Shown: positions 6,201-10,232 of the stretch, in pieces
How positions within the stretch are numbered: the stretch's first letter is position 1
Layout: each line of letters starts with the position of its first letter
IMG/VR virus record: IMGVR_UViG_2896607866_000002
DNA: 10,232 nucleotides
From: a virus
Lineage: Duplodnaviria; Heunggongvirae; Uroviricota; Caudoviricetes
Direction: 5' to 3' (one strand)
Made by a program: the position numbers

Positions 6201-9200
6201 TCATTCTCCAGCATCTCATATTTCTGCTCTTCTGCCAGCGCCCAGCGGTCAGCTTCCGTACGCTTCAGTACAGCATGCCATGGTCCCCAGAGGGAGAACC
6301 AGTCCGTAAATTCATTCTCTTCACGGCTTCTGACCATGGCTTCGGCAGTGCGGAGGTCATTTGCTGTCACTCCCGACACGCCATAGAAACGCATTTCCTT
6401 CACGGCAGTAGAGAGCTGAAGTTTCTCTGCGAGCATGGTCTGGAAGGCCAGGTAGACTTCTATCTCATCCACAAAATGGAGAGTTCTGACTTTATCCCGG
6501 GCAATATCCTCCAGAATTTCGAGGCGGAACATTTCCCTGCCCAGGGAGAGCAGAGCGCCGGTATCATTATCGAAAAGGCCTTCTGATGCCTGATGGACCA
6601 GGAGGGTTTTCCGGAGATTGTTCCATGTGAGCGCGACACGGTCCTCACAGCTCTCAGTGGCATCAGCAGCAACAGTGAAAGACTGCTGTCGAAGCTCCGC
6701 AGAGGCACTGAGTTTTTCCAGCCATGCAGCGACCTGTTCACGGAATCCGGAGGTATTGCGTGCAGAGACGGTATCGGAAAGGCGGTCAAGGAACGCGGAG
6801 AATGCCCGGGAATTCTCCTCGGTGGAAAAAGAAGTCCATTGTGTAGAAACCTCCCGACGATCTGCTTCAGGAAACCAGGCTGCCACAGTTTCGGGAAGAG
6901 GGGGGATCTGAAAGTTCTGCCCCCCTTCAGTGATGACTCTGATATGGCGCGAATGTAAATTTTGCGGCAACATCTGGCGTAAAAACAGTCTGTTTTGGTC
7001 TGACAGGGAAATACGAAACTGAGGCCCGTTAAAATTTGGAACCGAAGTTTGCTGTATTAAGAATAGCAGAGTTTGATCTGATAAGGGGTTATTTGCAATC
7101 TCAATAGTTATATGAGGATCTAAACGAAAAAGATTTGTCGGGATTGTAGTTATTTGGTTGTTTTCAAAATAAAAAAATCTTCTCATGATAATATTTTCTT
7201 GGATGTTTGGTAAGTTGCTTAATCTATTGCTATATGCAAAAAGAAGTTGCAGTCTCCTAGGTAAAGGGGGCAGTTCAGTAAGATGGTTGTGCGCAACCTT
7301 AAGTATCTTAAGATTAGAAGGCAGAGATGGAAGAGTTTGCAGTTCGTTGTTCCTAACCTCAAGTTTTTTTAAATTCAAGGGTAATGAAGGCAGTGTGGAT
7401 AACCTATTATACTCTGCGCTTAGTGATTTGATGGTGTCTGGTAATAACGGCAGATTCTCTAATTGATTTTCGGACACATCCAAAGTTATTAGATAATGTG
7501 GTAATGCAGATATATGTGTTAAGAAATTATCTCTTGCAATAAGTTCTTTAATATTTTCAGGTAAATCAGTAAGGATGGTTAATTTATTACAGCTCACATC
7601 AAGCTTTTTAATGCAAGCAGGGAGTACAGGTAACGAGGAAAGCGCCAAGGCTCGCAGGTCCAGTTTATGCCCCTTAGAGGTAAGACATGCACGAAGTCTT
7701 CTTACCGCCTCAGTACGCTGTTCTTCCGGTAACCCCTGTTTCTCCCAATCATCCCATTCGGACAAATAATGGTTGGGGGATGTAATTGTGCTGATATGTG
7801 GAAATAAACAGGATGAAATATTTCTGAGCATATTAATTTCTCGCATATGGATATGGAATTAGATTGTGAATAAATTGTATTTAATGTATCTCTCCTAATG
7901 AGGAGGGTGTTTCAGAATATTCGCCATAAGGGAATGAGTGTTATATCATGCTTTCTACCCTGGTAAGTATATTTGCTTTTTTCGTATATTTGGTTCATCT
8001 TTTTTTGATGTTTTACATATTCACAATGCAGAGGATTTATACCAGAAGACATTAGTCTTGAGTAAGATACTACAACATCTCCAACTATTTTAGCCAGCCT
8101 GACTACTTGACTTGGTAATATTTGTTGCTAATAATCATGTATAAAATAAGCTTATATACATAGTAACTTCAGCAAAGGATTTAGTAATGATCCAAATCAT
8201 ATCTCAATGTACTGTTTTTTTCTTTAAAAAAACAGTACATTCTATTTTATAATGACTGTGTATTCCCATGGAAGGAGATCACCCAATTCTCCCCCCGTTA
8301 CTTTATTCGTACCCCTTATAATGGGGTGTTAGCCAGCCAGACCCGGCATGATTACTGCCCCCAGTCGTCCATGATCCGGGGGGTGATGTCACCGGGTCTG
8401 GTGGGGCGCTGGTAACCGCTAATAGGGGTCAGGTCAGGCACTTTTGCCGGGACCGTCTGTAACGTGGATGCCGGTACCTGCTCCCCGTGGTTATCTGGTT
8501 AACCCATATACAAGGGAGACAGAATGACCGAATCCAGCGATTACGAATCCGTCCAGGTCTTTATCGGCGTTGATGTCGGTAAAGATACGCATCACGCTGT
8601 TGCCATTAATCGTTCAGGTAAACGCCTGTTCGATAAAGCATTACCCAACGACGAAAACAAACTCAGGTCGCTAATATCTGACCTGAAACAACATGGTCAG
8701 ATACTGCTGGTTGTTGATCAGCCAGCTACCATCGGTGCGTTACCTGTCGCCGTTGCCCGCTCAGAAGGAGTCCTTGTCGGATACCTCCCTGGACTGGCCA
8801 TGCGCCGCATAGCCGACTTACACGCCGGTGAAGCTAAAACTGATGCTCGTGACGCTGCCATCATTGCCGAAGCTGCCCGTACCCTGCCTCACGCGCTACG
8901 CACGCTGAAACTGGCTGACGAGCAAATCGCCGAACTCTCCATGCTCTGCGGCTTCGATGATGATCTTGCCGTACAGACAACGCAGGCCAGCAACCGTATC
9001 CGCGGCCTTCTGACCCAGATACATCCGGCACTGGAGCGCGTTCTCGGTCCGAGACTTGAGCACCCGGCGGTACTCGATCTTCTCCAGCGATATCCCTCAC
9101 CAGAAAAACTCGCTTCGCTGGGTGAGAAGAAGCTGGCAGCCCAGCTCTGCAAACTTGCGCCTCGTCTGGGTAAACGCCTTGCAGCAGACATAGCTCAGGC

Positions 9201-10232
9201 ACTGGCCGAACAAACCGTCGTCGTTCCCGGCACGAATGCCGCTGCCGTAGTACTGCCACGTCTGGCACTCCAGCTCATCACGCTGCGTAAGCAAAGAGAC
9301 GAGGTGGCGCTTGAGGTAGAACAGCGAGTTCTTGCTCACCCTCTTTACCCGGTCCTGACCAGTATGCCCGGAGTCGGTGTCAGGACCGCAGCCAGACTCC
9401 TCACCGAGGTCGCCTGCCGCGCCTTCGCCTCTGCCGCACATCTCGCTGCTTATGCTGGCCTTGCGCCGGTAACTCGGCGATCCGGCTCGTCAATACGCGG
9501 TGAGCATCCCTCGCGACGGGGTAATAAAGCTCTCAAACGGGCGTTGTTCCTGTCGGCCTTCGCCGCGCTCAGGGATCCGCTCTCCAGGGCTTACTACACC
9601 CGCAAAATGAGTCAGGGAAAACGACACAATCAGGCGCTTATCGCCCTGGCGAGACGACGCTGCGACGTTCTGTTCGCCATGATGCGCGATGGGACTTTTT
9701 ATACCCCGCAGGGGTCATAACATGCTTGACAACTTAATAGGGGCACCCCCCCGACTTTTGACGCAGTGTCTTGTTAACAGGGGGATTTACCATGCTTATT
9801 GGCTATGTACGCGTATCAACAAATGACCAGAATACCGATCTACAACGTAATGCGTTGAACTGTGCAGGATGCGAGCTGATTTTTGAAGACAAGATAAGTG
9901 GCACAAAGTCCGAAAGACCGGGGCTGAAAAAACTGCTCAGGACATTATCGGCAGGCGACACACTGGTTGTCTGGAAGCTGGATCGGCTGGGGCGCAGTAT
10001 GCGGCATCTTGTCGTGCTGGTGGAGGAGTTGCGCGAACGAGGCATCAACTTTCGTAGTCTGACTGATTCAATTGATACCAGCACACCAATGGGACGCTTT
10101 TTCTTCCATGTGATGGGTGCCCTGGCTGAAATGGAACGTGAACTGATTGTTGAACGAACAAAAGCAGGACTGGAAGCTGCTCGCGCACAGGGACGAATTG
10201 GCGGTCGCCGTCCCAAACTTTCACCAGAATAA

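What the first reader, a model, noticed from the sequence alone, without database searches (positions are those of the whole stretch)
8300..9750. IS110-family element with a structured 5' leader (candidate bridge RNA) and split promoter halves at its ends
The transposase is the DEDD/IS110 type, and the element has about 200 bp of GC-rich, strongly self-complementary non-coding sequence upstream of the ORF but almost none downstream. That is the layout in which IS110-subgroup elements encode the bridge RNA that programmes target and donor recognition. The left end contains TATAAT (8317..8322) and the right end TTGACA (9726..9731), which would form a strong promoter when the ends are joined in a circular intermediate. 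CCCCCCG is present in both flanks, and the related motifs TTATAATGGGG (left) and TTAATAGGGG (right) may mark the core and donor sequences. The element sits immediately upstream of the invertase gene and next to the ipaH promoter region, so it may affect expression of both.
Basis: partly seen in the sequence, partly recalled or inferred. Interest (0 to 1): 0.6.

Follow-up and report, generated by a model that had tools for sequence, protein, structure and literature searches.

The report
ISEc20 insertion sequence with bridge RNA
This is one intact copy of a catalogued jumping gene (ISEc20/ISSfl4, IS110 family) whose 5' leader encodes the guide ("bridge") RNA that steers it into runs of C; this is the expected layout for its family, so the finding is correct but ordinary.

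Summary
Window 8296..9745 is one intact 1450-bp copy of ISEc20/ISSfl4 (IS110 group), found at over 99% identity in more than 1,300 E. coli records. It sits in a poly-C tract between ipaH and pin. The 228-nt leader is part of the element: about 70 relatives in Burkholderiales and Microbacteriaceae align end to end. It folds into a 5' hairpin plus two stem-loops whose stems covary and whose internal loops are invariant. The loops read as IS621-type guides. UAAUAGGGG copies the right end, GUAACGUG is antisense to CA+CGTTAC, GGGGGGUG is antisense to CA+CCCCCC, and GCCCCCA copies the left flank. This implies a donor junction ...ATAGGGG-CA-CGTTAC... and a C-run target, which 51 insertion sites and three exact empty sites support.

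TTGACA is the conserved -35. Its partner is TACTTT (8299..8304, 17 nt away in the circle), not TATAAT, which is the loop of the 5' hairpin. The CCCCCCG flanks are target DNA, not element or core.

Durrant et al. 2024 already list ISSfl4/ISEc20 as carrying a left-end bridge RNA, so this is already known. Unexplained extras: hypervariable poly-C at empty sites, asymmetric core inheritance, and half-site deletions.

The parts
8291..8295 (+). Left target flank: host C-run. 8294..8295 (CC) is the left-junction copy of the core position.
   Evidence: Across 51 insertion sites, positions -4..-1 before CGTTAC are C in 33, 48, 50 and 47 sites. Empty sites of other copies show these Cs are host DNA.
8296..9745 (+). 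ISEc20/ISSfl4 insertion sequence, 1450 bp (CGTTAC...ATAGGGGCA). A 1-nt frame ambiguity allows 8297..9746 instead.
   Evidence: Over 99% identity to copies annotated 'IS110-like element ISEc20 family transposase' and 'ISSfl4 family'. Relatives align end to end. Occupied versus intact empty sites at yfhM, the usher gene and the hydrolase gene fit exactly.
8296..8301 (+). Right-donor half-site (RD) CGTTAC, the first bases of the left end.
   Evidence: GTTAC is invariant in 64 leaders. It is the reverse complement of RDG 8459..8464. Host CGTTAC pseudo-sites are used in IS-adjacent deletions.
8299..8304 (+). -10 hexamer TACTTT of the promoter formed only in the circular RE-LE junction.
   Evidence: TTGAC[AGT]-17/18 nt-TAC[TC][TA]T is present in all 51 reconstructed junctions where a -35 could be located. 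T, A and the final T are invariant. This copy matches TATAAT at only 3 of 6 positions.
8311..8327 (+). 5' hairpin of the bridge RNA (ACCCC-UUAUAAU-GGGGU).
   Evidence: The stem covaries in relatives: CCCC/GGGG, CCTCG/CGAGG, ACCTT/AAGGT. Three of 5 pairs show double changes.
8328..8334 (+). 5' strand of the closing helix (GUUAGCC), which pairs with 8497..8503.
   Evidence: Four of 7 pairs have compensatory changes, for example A-U here versus G-C in most relatives.
8336..8402 (+). Target-binding stem-loop. The outer stem is 8336..8346 with 8392..8402. LTG is UGCCCCCA (8356..8363) and RTG is GGGGGG-UG (8378..8385).
   Evidence: 98.9% of cells are paired and 7 pairs have double changes. RTG is antisense to CA+CCCCCC, which is the right junction in 42-48 of 51 sites. 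L066 has RTG GGGGUGUG with right flank CA-CACCCC.
8404..8485 (+). Donor-binding stem-loop. LDG is UAAUAGGGG (8420..8428), RDG is GUAACG-UG (8459..8466), and the distal stem is 8432..8454.
   Evidence: 97% of cells are paired and 8 pairs have double changes. LDG is identical to RE 9735..9743 and RDG is antisense to CA+CGTTAC. Jointly these matches were reached by 0 of 5000 shuffles. The LDG G/A variant tracks the RE G/A variant in 11 of 11 relatives.
8497..8503 (+). 3' strand of the closing helix (GGUUAAC).
   Evidence: helix 2.
8513..8518 (+). Ribosome-binding site AGGGAG.
   Evidence: Read directly from the sequence, 5 nt upstream of ATG 8524.
8524..9720 (+). Bridge recombinase (IS110 transposase), 398 aa. 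RuvC-like DEDD domain with D17, D65, D107 and D110. Tnp domain with S320 in RRSGSSIRG.
   Evidence: Pfam PF01548 and PF02371. The C-terminal domain aligns to IS621 (8wt6, E=1.2e-14) and ISCro4 recombinases, with SGSS over SGSS.
9726..9731 (+). -35 hexamer TTGACA of the junction promoter.
   Evidence: TTGAC is conserved in the right end of all relatives.
9735..9743 (+). Left-donor half-site (LD) TAATAGGGG.
   Evidence: Identical to LDG 8420..8428 and covaries with it.
9744..9745 (+). Donor core dinucleotide CA, the last two bases of the element.
   Evidence: CA follows ATAGGG[GA] in 49 of 51 right junctions. It is paired by the UG of both RTG and RDG. The assignment is by analogy with IS621.
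9746..9752 (+). Right target flank (RT): host C-run of 7.
   Evidence: C at +1..+6 in 42-48 of 51 sites and random beyond that. The length matches the six Gs of the RTG.

Best explanation
Window 8296..9745 is an intact, probably active copy of ISEc20/ISSfl4, a 1450-bp IS110-group insertion sequence made of a bridge RNA gene and a DEDD/serine bridge recombinase gene.

Shown here:
- The element's identity and ends.
- The leader belongs to the element.
- The leader has a covarying secondary structure: a 5' hairpin, a closing helix and two stem-loops with invariant internal loops.
- The loop sequences match the element's own ends and the flanks of 51 independent insertions.

Inferred by analogy with IS621:
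- The element excises as a circle whose joint reads ...TTGACA-N17-TACTTT... across ATAGGGG-CA-CGTTAC. This creates a sigma-70 promoter that fires at about 8311 and makes a roughly 190-nt bridge RNA, and behind it the recombinase mRNA.
- The second loop holds the circle joint. [quoted passage not shown] - The first loop holds a host C-run. [quoted passage not shown] - The recombinase tetramer (Ser320 plus the DEDD site) exchanges strands just 3' of the core.

Here the element went into a poly-C tract between the ipaH promoter region and pin, leaving 5 host Cs on its left and 7 on its right.
For: Identity:
- Pfam DEDD_Tnp_IS110 and Transposase_20.
- Over 99% DNA identity to ISEc20/ISSfl4 in 1307 E. 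coli records and in Shigella plasmids.
- The C-terminal domain aligns to the IS621 and ISCro4 recombinases.

Ends:
- yfhM: the intact wild type has CA-C9, and the occupied site has 2 + 7 Cs.
- Usher gene: 7 Cs empty, 4 + 3 occupied. Hydrolase gene: 9 Cs empty, 2 + 7 occupied.
- About 70 relatives at 73-82% aa identity align from CGTTAC to GGGGCA, and several are whole contigs of 1456-1465 bp.

Structure:
- RNAalifold finds two stem-loops.
- In my 44-pair model, 93.3% of cells are paired, against 27-48% when the partners are slid.
- 26 pairs show double changes, and 0 of 500 shuffles reach any measure.

Guides:
- A 9-nt sense match to the RE and an 8-nt antisense match to core+LE were jointly reached by 0 of 5000 shuffles.
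- The LDG GGGG/GGGA variant tracks the RE variant in 11 of 11 relatives. The L066 RTG mutation is compensated in its flank.
- The target logo is CCCC | CCCCCC.
- Host CGTTAC pseudo-sites serve as deletion endpoints.

Promoter: -35 and TAnnnT at 17/18 nt in all 51 reconstructed junctions with a recognisable -35.

Paradigm and prior listing:
- Durrant 2024 (PMC11208160).
- Hiraizumi 2024 (PMC11208158).
- A supplementary table of Durrant 2024 (supplement file 8 as held) lists ISSfl4/ISEc20 as 'LE, IS110'.
Against: - No transcript, binding or recombination data exist for this element.
- No Rfam family matches the leader.
- The -10 of this copy matches the consensus at only 3 of 6 positions.
- The predicted RE-CA-CGTTAC joint was not found in metagenome contigs (0 hits). 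The three RE-LE joints that were found carry 2-4 extra Cs.
- Donor core (CA) and usual target core (CC) differ at the second base, unlike the identical CT cores of IS621.
- Empty alleles of the window's own site have 6 or 21 Cs, not the 12 predicted. RtcB empties have 7, 9 or about 62 Cs against 11 predicted.
- At dgcE the left flank of the occupied copy (CCAG-CC) does not derive simply from the wild type (CCAG-AACA).
- The target loop is invariant across the family, so target covariation rests on a single case (L066).
Confidence: 0.85

Rival explanations
1. The C-run travels with the element. The mobile unit would be about 1456 bp (CCCCCCGTTAC...GGGGCAC, window 8291..9746 or any of 8 frames). 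The circle joint would carry 6-7 Cs, and recombination would happen anywhere inside the aligned C-runs of donor and target.
For: - The two E. coli empty alleles of this very site have only 6 Cs, while the occupied site has 6 + 7.
- Collapsed repeat contigs start with CCCC and end with CACCCCCC.
- The metagenome RE-LE joints contain 2-4 extra Cs.
- At dgcE the Cs on the left are not present in the wild-type target.
Against: - At the usher site the right junction has only 3 Cs, and 5 + 3 Cs equals the 7 of the native allele plus the C of CGTTAC.
- yfhM (9 = 2 + 7) and the hydrolase gene (9 = 2 + 7) also fit with no imported Cs.
- Deletion junctions read GGGGCA-CGTTACC with no C-run.
- RDG is antisense to the contiguous CACGTTAC.
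- The conserved 17/18-nt promoter spacing exists only without intervening Cs.
- L098 is a tandem pair of copies, so extra Cs there can be target DNA.
Confidence: 0.1
2. One reading: the element is 8300..9750, TATAAT 8317..8322 and TTGACA 9726..9731 join into a strong promoter in the circle, and CCCCCCG, TTATAATGGGG and TTAATAGGGG mark the core and donor.
For: Both hexamers are perfect consensus and are present. TTGACA is family-conserved. TTAATAGGGG is indeed the donor arm.
Against: - In the joined circle the two hexamers are 35 nt apart (14 nt of RE plus 21 nt of LE).
- TATAAT is not conserved. Relatives have GATAAT, GATCCTC, GGGTAAGC and others, and it sits in the loop of a covarying hairpin.
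- The promoter scan finds no -35 for it in the integrated state either.
- The CCCCCCG flanks are host DNA.
Confidence: 0.03
3. The leader is only a structured 5' UTR that regulates transposase translation or stability. It is not a guide RNA.
For: The transcript must run on into the CDS, since no terminator lies between. The closing helix ends 10 nt before the ribosome-binding site. No expression data exist.
Against: A purely regulatory UTR would not carry loop sequences that copy the element's right end, are antisense to its left end and to its flanks, and covary with them. The family mechanism has been shown biochemically and structurally for IS621 (PMC11208160, PMC11208158).
Confidence: 0.02

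Closest known systems
IS621 bridge recombinase and bridge RNA (E. coli; Durrant et al. 2024, Hiraizumi et al. 2024)
   Same: - IS110 group with a long left end and a short right end.
- A DEDD RuvC-like domain plus a Tnp domain with SGSS serine.
[quoted passage not shown] The first loop reads the target and the second reads the donor.
- The -35 lies in the RE and the -10 in the LE, across the core.
   Different: - The recombinase is 398 aa, against 328 residues for the deposited IS621 chain. Only the C-terminal domain aligns by sequence.
- The second DEDD position is Asp, not Glu.
- The core is CA in the donor and usually CC in the target, rather than identical CT cores.
- The target is a homopolymer C-run, so LTG and RTG are complementary to each other.
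- The target loop is as invariant as the donor loop, whereas in IS621 relatives the target loop varies.
- An extra closing helix encloses both loops.
- Recognition in E. coli seems dominated by the right half (C[A/C]-CCCCCC).
IS110 proper and its ISfinder relatives (ISAar17, ISBma3, ISSer1, ISSgr1 and others)
   Same: Durrant et al. place ISEc20 and ISSfl4 in the same recombinase cluster as IS110 itself, and they list a left-end bridge RNA for ISSfl4 and ISSer1.
   Different: I did not examine those elements. Their targets and guides were not compared here.
IS1111-group elements and seekRNA (IS1111, IS4321/IS5075, ISEc11, ISSfl8)
   Same: The same recombinase family and the same RNA-guided logic.
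   Different: In those elements the guide RNA is in the long right end and subterminal inverted repeats are long (PMC11208160). Here the RNA is in the left end and the RE is 25 nt.
Half-match recombination of IS621 (Xie et al., bioRxiv 10.64898/2026.08.31.748434)
   Same: Natural ISEc20-family junctions use a host site that matches only the RD arm (CGTTAC), as in L009, L010 and L052. The dgcE and yfhM targets match mainly the RT arm.
   Different: Those authors worked in vitro and with reprogrammed IS621. Here the events are fixed in genomes and include an adjacent deletion.

Membership tests
IS110 family insertion sequence (IS110 group) | N-terminal RuvC-like DEDD transposase domain | tested here: met
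   PF01548 at E=2.9e-48 over residues 14-168. D17, D65, D107 and D110 lie in GVDVGK, VVDQPA and KTDARDA. The second acidic residue is D where IS621 has E60 (alignment).
IS110 family insertion sequence (IS110 group) | C-terminal Tnp domain with the conserved catalytic serine | tested here: met
   PF02371 at E=7.3e-22. RRSGSSIRG (S320) aligns with YESGSSVRG of IS621 chain 8wt6_A. S241 is catalytic in IS621.
IS110 family insertion sequence (IS110 group) | Long left non-coding end, short right end, no terminal inverted repeats | tested here: met
   LE is 228 nt and RE is 25 nt. The ends CGTTACTTT and TAGGGGCA are not inverted repeats.
IS110 family insertion sequence (IS110 group) | Multiple copies with the same ends at different sites, and empty sites that differ only by the element | tested here: met
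   2391 places in 1464 E. coli genomes. There are 51 distinct flank pairs. Exact empty sites exist at yfhM, the usher gene and the hydrolase gene.
Bridge RNA (IS110-type guide RNA) | [quoted passage not shown] | tested here: met
   64 leaders give 44 pairs, 93.3% of cells paired, 26 pairs with compensatory changes, and 0 of 500 shuffles reaching the observed values.
Bridge RNA (IS110-type guide RNA) | Second loop: the 5' side is same-sense to the left donor and the 3' side is antisense to core plus right donor, with covariation | tested here: met
   8420..8428 equals 9735..9743. 8459..8466 is antisense to CA+CGTTAC. Jointly reached by 0 of 5000 shuffles. The LDG G/A variant tracks the RE in 11 of 11 relatives.
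Bridge RNA (IS110-type guide RNA) | First loop complementary to the natural target sites | tested here: met
   RTG GGGGGG-UG matches a right junction of CA plus 6 Cs in 42-48 of 51 sites. LTG GCCCCC matches the left Cs. There is one compensatory case, L066. The loop is otherwise invariant, so no broad covariation test was possible.
Bridge RNA (IS110-type guide RNA) | Identical core dinucleotide in donor and target | tested here: inconclusive
   The right junction is CA in 49 of 51 sites and the left junction is CC in 46 of 51. Only the first base is shared in most events. The targets at dgcE, L027 and L083 do carry CA.
Bridge RNA (IS110-type guide RNA) | Sigma-70 promoter reconstituted across the RE-LE joint of the circle | tested here: met
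   In silico only. TTGAC[AGT]-17/18-TAC[TC][TA]T is present in all 51 reconstructed joints with a recognisable -35. The joint itself was not observed.
Bridge RNA (IS110-type guide RNA) | The RNA is expressed and bound by its recombinase, and reprogramming the loops changes specificity | not testable with these tools
   No expression or biochemical data are available here.
Bridge RNA (IS110-type guide RNA) | Match to a curated covariance model | tested here: not met
   Rfam 15 gives no hit at the gathering threshold. Relaxed-threshold matches are noise only: snoZ256 E=1.3 on the opposite strand, CRISPR-DR24 E=7.3 and HgcF E=9.5. The authors' own models did call a left-end bridge RNA for ISSfl4/ISEc20 (Durrant 2024 supplement).

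The most novel reading that the evidence does not exclude
ISEc20-family bridge recombinases may not only seek homopolymeric C tracts but also remodel them. IS-free alleles of their target sites carry C-runs of 6 to about 62. At dgcE the bases left of the target were replaced by Cs. Natural junctions always keep the target core on the left and the donor core on the right. That is the signature of inheriting the top-strand product only, as in the single-strand copy-and-paste model proposed for IS621. The same enzymes also make adjacent deletions at host sites that match a single guide arm.
Probability: 0.2. Interest if true: 0.6.

Novelty: already known. Interest (0 to 1): 0.3.

Why it matters
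For this window it matters little. It is a routine copy of a catalogued IS whose bridge RNA was already predicted in a published table.

The dissection does give a usable parts list for a bridge system from the IS110-proper clade, which is distant from IS621: guides, a CA core, an 8-nt C[A/C]-CCCCCC target and a junction promoter.

It also shows that natural insertion sites can be read as a record of the reaction. They show which strand's product is inherited, that half-site events occur in the wild, and that homopolymer targets behave oddly.

In Shigella the element sits next to a virulence effector gene and a phage invertase, and related copies have deleted parts of host genes (ibsA and mdtA).

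Tried and rejected
- Rfam at gathering and at relaxed thresholds found no bridge RNA family, only noise.
- Literature searches for ISEc20, ISSfl4, and IS110 with homopolymer found nothing on this element's RNA beyond the Durrant supplement.
- I first took the L002 empty site (6 Cs) at face value and set the element at 1456 bp with a 7-nt CCCCCCG repeat. I abandoned this after the usher, hydrolase and yfhM sites.
- I first read the L009 right junction as a tandem or partial second copy. BLAST showed ordinary host mdtA sequence, about 600 bp from the original target.
- An exact search for the predicted circle joint in metagenome contigs returned 0 hits. The gapped search gave 13 hits, of which only 3 are real RE-LE joints, and L098 at least is a tandem copy.
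- The empty site for the L006 insertion could not be found, because its flanks are not contiguous in any E. coli record.
- I could not derive the dgcE left junction from either IS-free allele under any frame.
- I looked for an outward promoter from TTGACA into pin and found none: the -10 position reads CCCCGA.
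Full report
**1. What is there**

The ORF at 8524..9720 (+, 398 aa) carries the two domains of IS110-family recombinases. These are DEDD_Tnp_IS110 (E=2.9e-48) and Transposase_20 (E=7.3e-22). Its C-terminal domain aligns with the solved IS621 and ISCro4 bridge recombinases. 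RRSGSSIRG (S320) lies over the SGSS motif that holds the catalytic serine of IS621.

The DNA is more than 99% identical to copies annotated 'IS110-like element ISEc20 family transposase' in 1307 E. coli records. In all it is found at 2391 places in 1464 genomes, with a median of 1 per genome and up to 9. Shigella virulence plasmids carry copies annotated 'ISSfl4'.

The surroundings are a prophage remnant: an integrase, an IS3-type transposase and tail-fibre genes. Next come ipaH (6020..7846, minus strand), the IS, and a pin-type invertase that starts at 9793.

**2. Where the element begins and ends**

BLAST matches to other copies start at window 8284..8294 and stop at 9748..9760, because the flanks are C-runs everywhere.

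My first estimate used an E. coli O121 empty site that reads AATTCT-CCCCCC-GACTTTT. It gave a 1456-bp unit with CCCCCCG at both junctions. Other insertions overturned that estimate.

| Site | Empty allele | Occupied allele |
|---|---|---|
| Fimbrial usher gene | Common in-frame allele TTTG-C7-TGACC | TTTG-CCCCC\|GTTAC ... GGGGCA\|CCC-TGACC |
| yfhM | Intact wild type, about 5,360 records, GATCA-C9-ACGG | GATCA-CC\|CGTTAC ... GGGGCC\|C7-ACGG |
| Hydrolase gene | 9 Cs | 2 + 7 Cs |

In all three, the inserted DNA is exactly CGTTAC...ATAGGGGCA, 1450 bp. This corresponds to window 8296..9745, or one base to the right. The C-runs on both sides are host DNA.

About 70 relatives were fetched from Burkholderiales, Oxalobacteraceae, Microbacteriaceae and others, at 73-82% aa and roughly 70% nt identity. 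They align with the window from CGTTAC to GGGGCA. Several are whole contigs of 1456-1465 bp, which is what a collapsed repeat looks like.

**3. The leader is a structured RNA gene**

Sixty-four distinct leaders align with invariant blocks separated by variable stems. The invariant blocks are:
- GTTAC
- GGCATGAT
- CCCCC[AT]GTC
- ATGATC[CT]GGGGGGTG
- ATCGCT[AG]ATAGGG
- CGTAACGTGGATG

RNAalifold returns two stem-loops. I tested a 44-pair model on this alignment. It consisted of:
- a 5' hairpin (8311..8327)
- a closing helix (8328..8334 with 8497..8503)
- stem-loop A (8336..8402)
- stem-loop B (8404..8485)

In this model 93.3% of cells form pairs, against 27-48% when the partners are slid by 1-3 columns. 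Twenty-six pairs show changes on both sides, and none of 500 shuffles reaches any of the five measures. The single-sequence fold alone is unremarkable (z = -2.1).

**4. Reading the loops**

[quoted passage not shown] The first loop reads the target and the second reads the donor. Applying that rule here gives the following.

| Loop | Guide | Window position | Sequence | Relation |
|---|---|---|---|---|
| B (donor) | LDG | 8420..8428 | UAAUAGGGG | Identical to the last bases of the right end, 9735..9743 |
| B (donor) | RDG | 8459..8466 | GUAACGUG | Reverse complement of CA (9744..9745) plus CGTTAC (8296..8301) |
| A (target) | LTG | 8356..8363 | UGCCCCCA | Same sense as the left flank |
| A (target) | RTG | 8378..8385 | GGGGGGUG | Reverse complement of CA+CCCCCC |

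Matches as long as the two donor matches arise in 11 and 56 of 5000 shuffled leaders, and never together.

Relatives whose LDG reads AUAGGGAC have a right end reading ATAGGGACAC, in 11 of 11 cases across two host phyla. Those with GGGG have GGGGCAC.

The two loops therefore specify a donor joint ...ATAGGGG-CA-CGTTAC... and a target ...(G)CCCC-C[A]-CCCCCC.

Fifty-one distinct insertions agree with this. C occupies the four positions left of CGTTAC in 33, 48, 50 and 47 sites. C occupies the six positions right of GGGxCA in 42-48 sites. Composition is random beyond that. Six is exactly the number of Gs in the RTG.

One relative, L066, has RTG GGGGUGUG and a right flank of CA-CACCCC, which is a compensatory pair. 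The wild-type dgcE target contains a perfect CACCCCCC.

**5. The promoter**

If the ends are joined as GGGGCA-CGTTAC, then TTGACA (9726..9731) lies 17 nt from TACTTT (8299..8304).

Fifty-two distinct RE-LE joints were reconstructed. In the 51 where a -35 could be located, TTGAC[AGT] is followed at 17 or 18 nt by TAC[TC][TA]T, and the T, A and final T are invariant. One reconstruction, L013, rested on a false right-end match.

The predicted start, near 8311, is the first base of the 5' hairpin.

TATAAT (8317..8322) would be 35 nt from TTGACA. It is the loop of that hairpin and is not conserved. The scan finds no -35 for it in the integrated state.

In this copy the -10 matches the consensus at only 3 of 6 positions. 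In the integrated state the -35 position reads AGATCA, so expression from the chromosome should be low. This step is inferred. I could not observe the joint or any transcript.

**6. How it most likely works**

The likely mechanism is that of IS621 (PMC11208160, PMC11208158):
1. Excision to a circle.
2. Promoter-driven synthesis of the bridge RNA and the recombinase.
3. One loop holds the circle joint and the other holds a host C-run.
4. Top-strand cleavage 3' of the core by the serine of a composite RuvC-Tnp site.
5. Strand exchange and resolution.

The anatomy, the covariation and the concordance of sites are shown here. Every biochemical step is inferred.

Confidence is 0.85 for 'ISEc20 with a left-end bridge RNA that works like IS621'. 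It is about 0.65 for the specific core (CA) and the junction promoter.

**7. What does not fit**

(a) Donor core CA and usual target core CC differ at the second base. Left junctions keep CC (46 of 51) and right junctions keep CA (49 of 51). The reciprocal pattern never occurs. That is the top-strand product if cleavage is 3' of the core. A classical two-strand exchange followed by replication should give both patterns. This is compatible with the single-strand copy-and-paste proposal for IS621 (bioRxiv 10.64898/2026.08.31.748434), but it does not prove it.

(b) C-run lengths at IS-free alleles are erratic.
- This window's site: 6, 6 and 21 Cs, against 12 predicted.
- RtcB: 7, 9 and about 62 Cs, against 11 predicted.
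- yfhM: 11 Cs in a frameshifted allele, against 9 in the wild type.
- dgcE: 10 Cs in a frameshifted allele.

(c) At dgcE the occupied left junction, CCAG-CC, cannot be derived from the wild type, CCAG-AACA.

(d) The only RE-LE joints I found in metagenomes have 2-4 extra Cs. One of them, L098, is a tandem pair of copies.

These points keep alive a rival at 0.1, in which Cs can travel with the element.

**8. Comparison with what is known, and novelty**

The closest system is IS621 with its bridge RNA. The logic and parts are the same. The differences are:
- a larger protein that aligns only in the C-terminal domain
- Asp at the second acidic position
- a homopolymer target, which makes LTG and RTG mutually complementary
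- an invariant target loop
- an extra closing helix
- a non-identical core

Durrant et al. cluster ISEc20 and ISSfl4 with IS110 itself. One of their supplementary tables (supplement file 8 as held) lists 'ISSfl4 - LE - IS110 - ISEc20;ISSfl4', meaning a bridge RNA predicted in the left end. The guide assignments, the C-run target and the promoter partner are details I did not find published in the library searched.

**9. Verdict**

The family, the bridge RNA leader and the -35 are right. The -10, the core and the role of CCCCCCG are wrong. This is an ordinary member of a known kind, with interest 0.3. The side observations in section 7 and the half-site deletions are the only parts that might repay further work.

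Noticed in passing
L009 and L010 (S. flexneri SFBU1023, E. coli ECMA0423) right junction at about 2223; L095 for the IS-free state; L052 (Cupriavidus laharis): The right junction of this ISEc20 copy reads GGGGCA|CGTTACCTCATC. In IS-free E. coli the left flank (GGTTTCCCCC-TCCCCCTGG, upstream of ibsA) and the right flank (inside mdtA, GTTCCG-CGTTACCTCACC) lie about 600 bp apart. This is an IS-adjacent deletion whose far end is a host CGTTAC, matching only the RD guide arm. A relative in Cupriavidus shows the same type of junction. These look like natural 'half-match' events.
   Followed up: yes
Empty ISEc20 target sites: L001 (21 Cs), L002 and H146 (6 Cs), L089/L093/L091 (7, 9, about 62 Cs), L088/L092 (8, 9 Cs), L110 (10 Cs), L112 (11 Cs): Poly-C tracts at IS-free alleles of ISEc20 target sites are very variable in length and often frameshift the host gene. 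One tract in an RtcB-family gene is about 62 Cs long. Whether this is plain slippage or is connected to the element is unknown.
   Followed up: partly
L008 (occupied dgcE), L109 (wild type), L110 (IS-free, frameshifted): Wild-type dgcE reads CCAG-AACA-CCCCCC-AACAG, a perfect core plus right target with no Cs on the left. The occupied allele reads CCAG-CC|IS|CCCCCC-AACAG. No simple insertion model converts one into the other.
   Followed up: partly
All 51 insertion sites listed; window 8294..8295 and 9744..9745: The core position is CC at the left junction in 46 of 51 sites and CA at the right junction in 49 of 51. The reciprocal combination never occurs. This is the pattern expected if only the top-strand recombinant is inherited.
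   Followed up: partly
L098 (30-kb metagenome contig, junction at about 2661..2684), L101, L108: RE-LE joints of relatives read ATAGGGACA-CC-CGTTAC or ...CA-CCCC-CGTTAC. L098 is a head-to-tail tandem of two copies. The exact zero-C joint had no hit in the metagenome collection.
   Followed up: partly
L003 1501..1565 (E. coli KGu016 and at least six other genomes); window 8293..8357: The first 65 bp of the ISEc20 left end stands alone at 100% identity in a prophage Rz region. It is followed directly by the end of an IS3-family element and looks like a truncated copy.
   Followed up: partly
window 8206..8241 and 8222..8238 (minus strand): A palindrome with 16-bp arms (AATGTACTGTTTTTTT-CTTT-AAAAAAACAGTACATT) is scored as terminator-like on the + strand. 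Its minus strand reads GTACTGTTTTTTTAAAG, 2 mismatches from the MxiE box as I recall it from my own knowledge (GTATCGTTTTTTTANAG). Chance expectation is 0.09 per window. It lies about 375-390 nt upstream of the ipaH ATG and 58 nt from the IS.
   Followed up: partly
window 8224..8253 (+): A promoter-like site, TTAAAA-18-TATAAT (10 of 12), points towards the IS left end 43 nt away. It could give read-through transcription of the bridge RNA in this particular copy. It is a consensus match only.
   Followed up: no
window 1..5840: The context is a prophage remnant: a ferredoxin-like ORF end, a phage integrase (470..1576), an IS3-family transposase orfB (1617..2438, minus), a tail-fibre assembly protein, a tail-fibre N-terminal domain and a DUF4376 protein. 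The ipaH gene follows.
   Followed up: partly
H76-H81 (E. coli, 87-88% identity to window 8293..9751): E. coli also carries a second, related IS110-group element about 87% identical to ISEc20. Some copies are interrupted by an ISL3 element. Its guides and targets were not examined.
   Followed up: no
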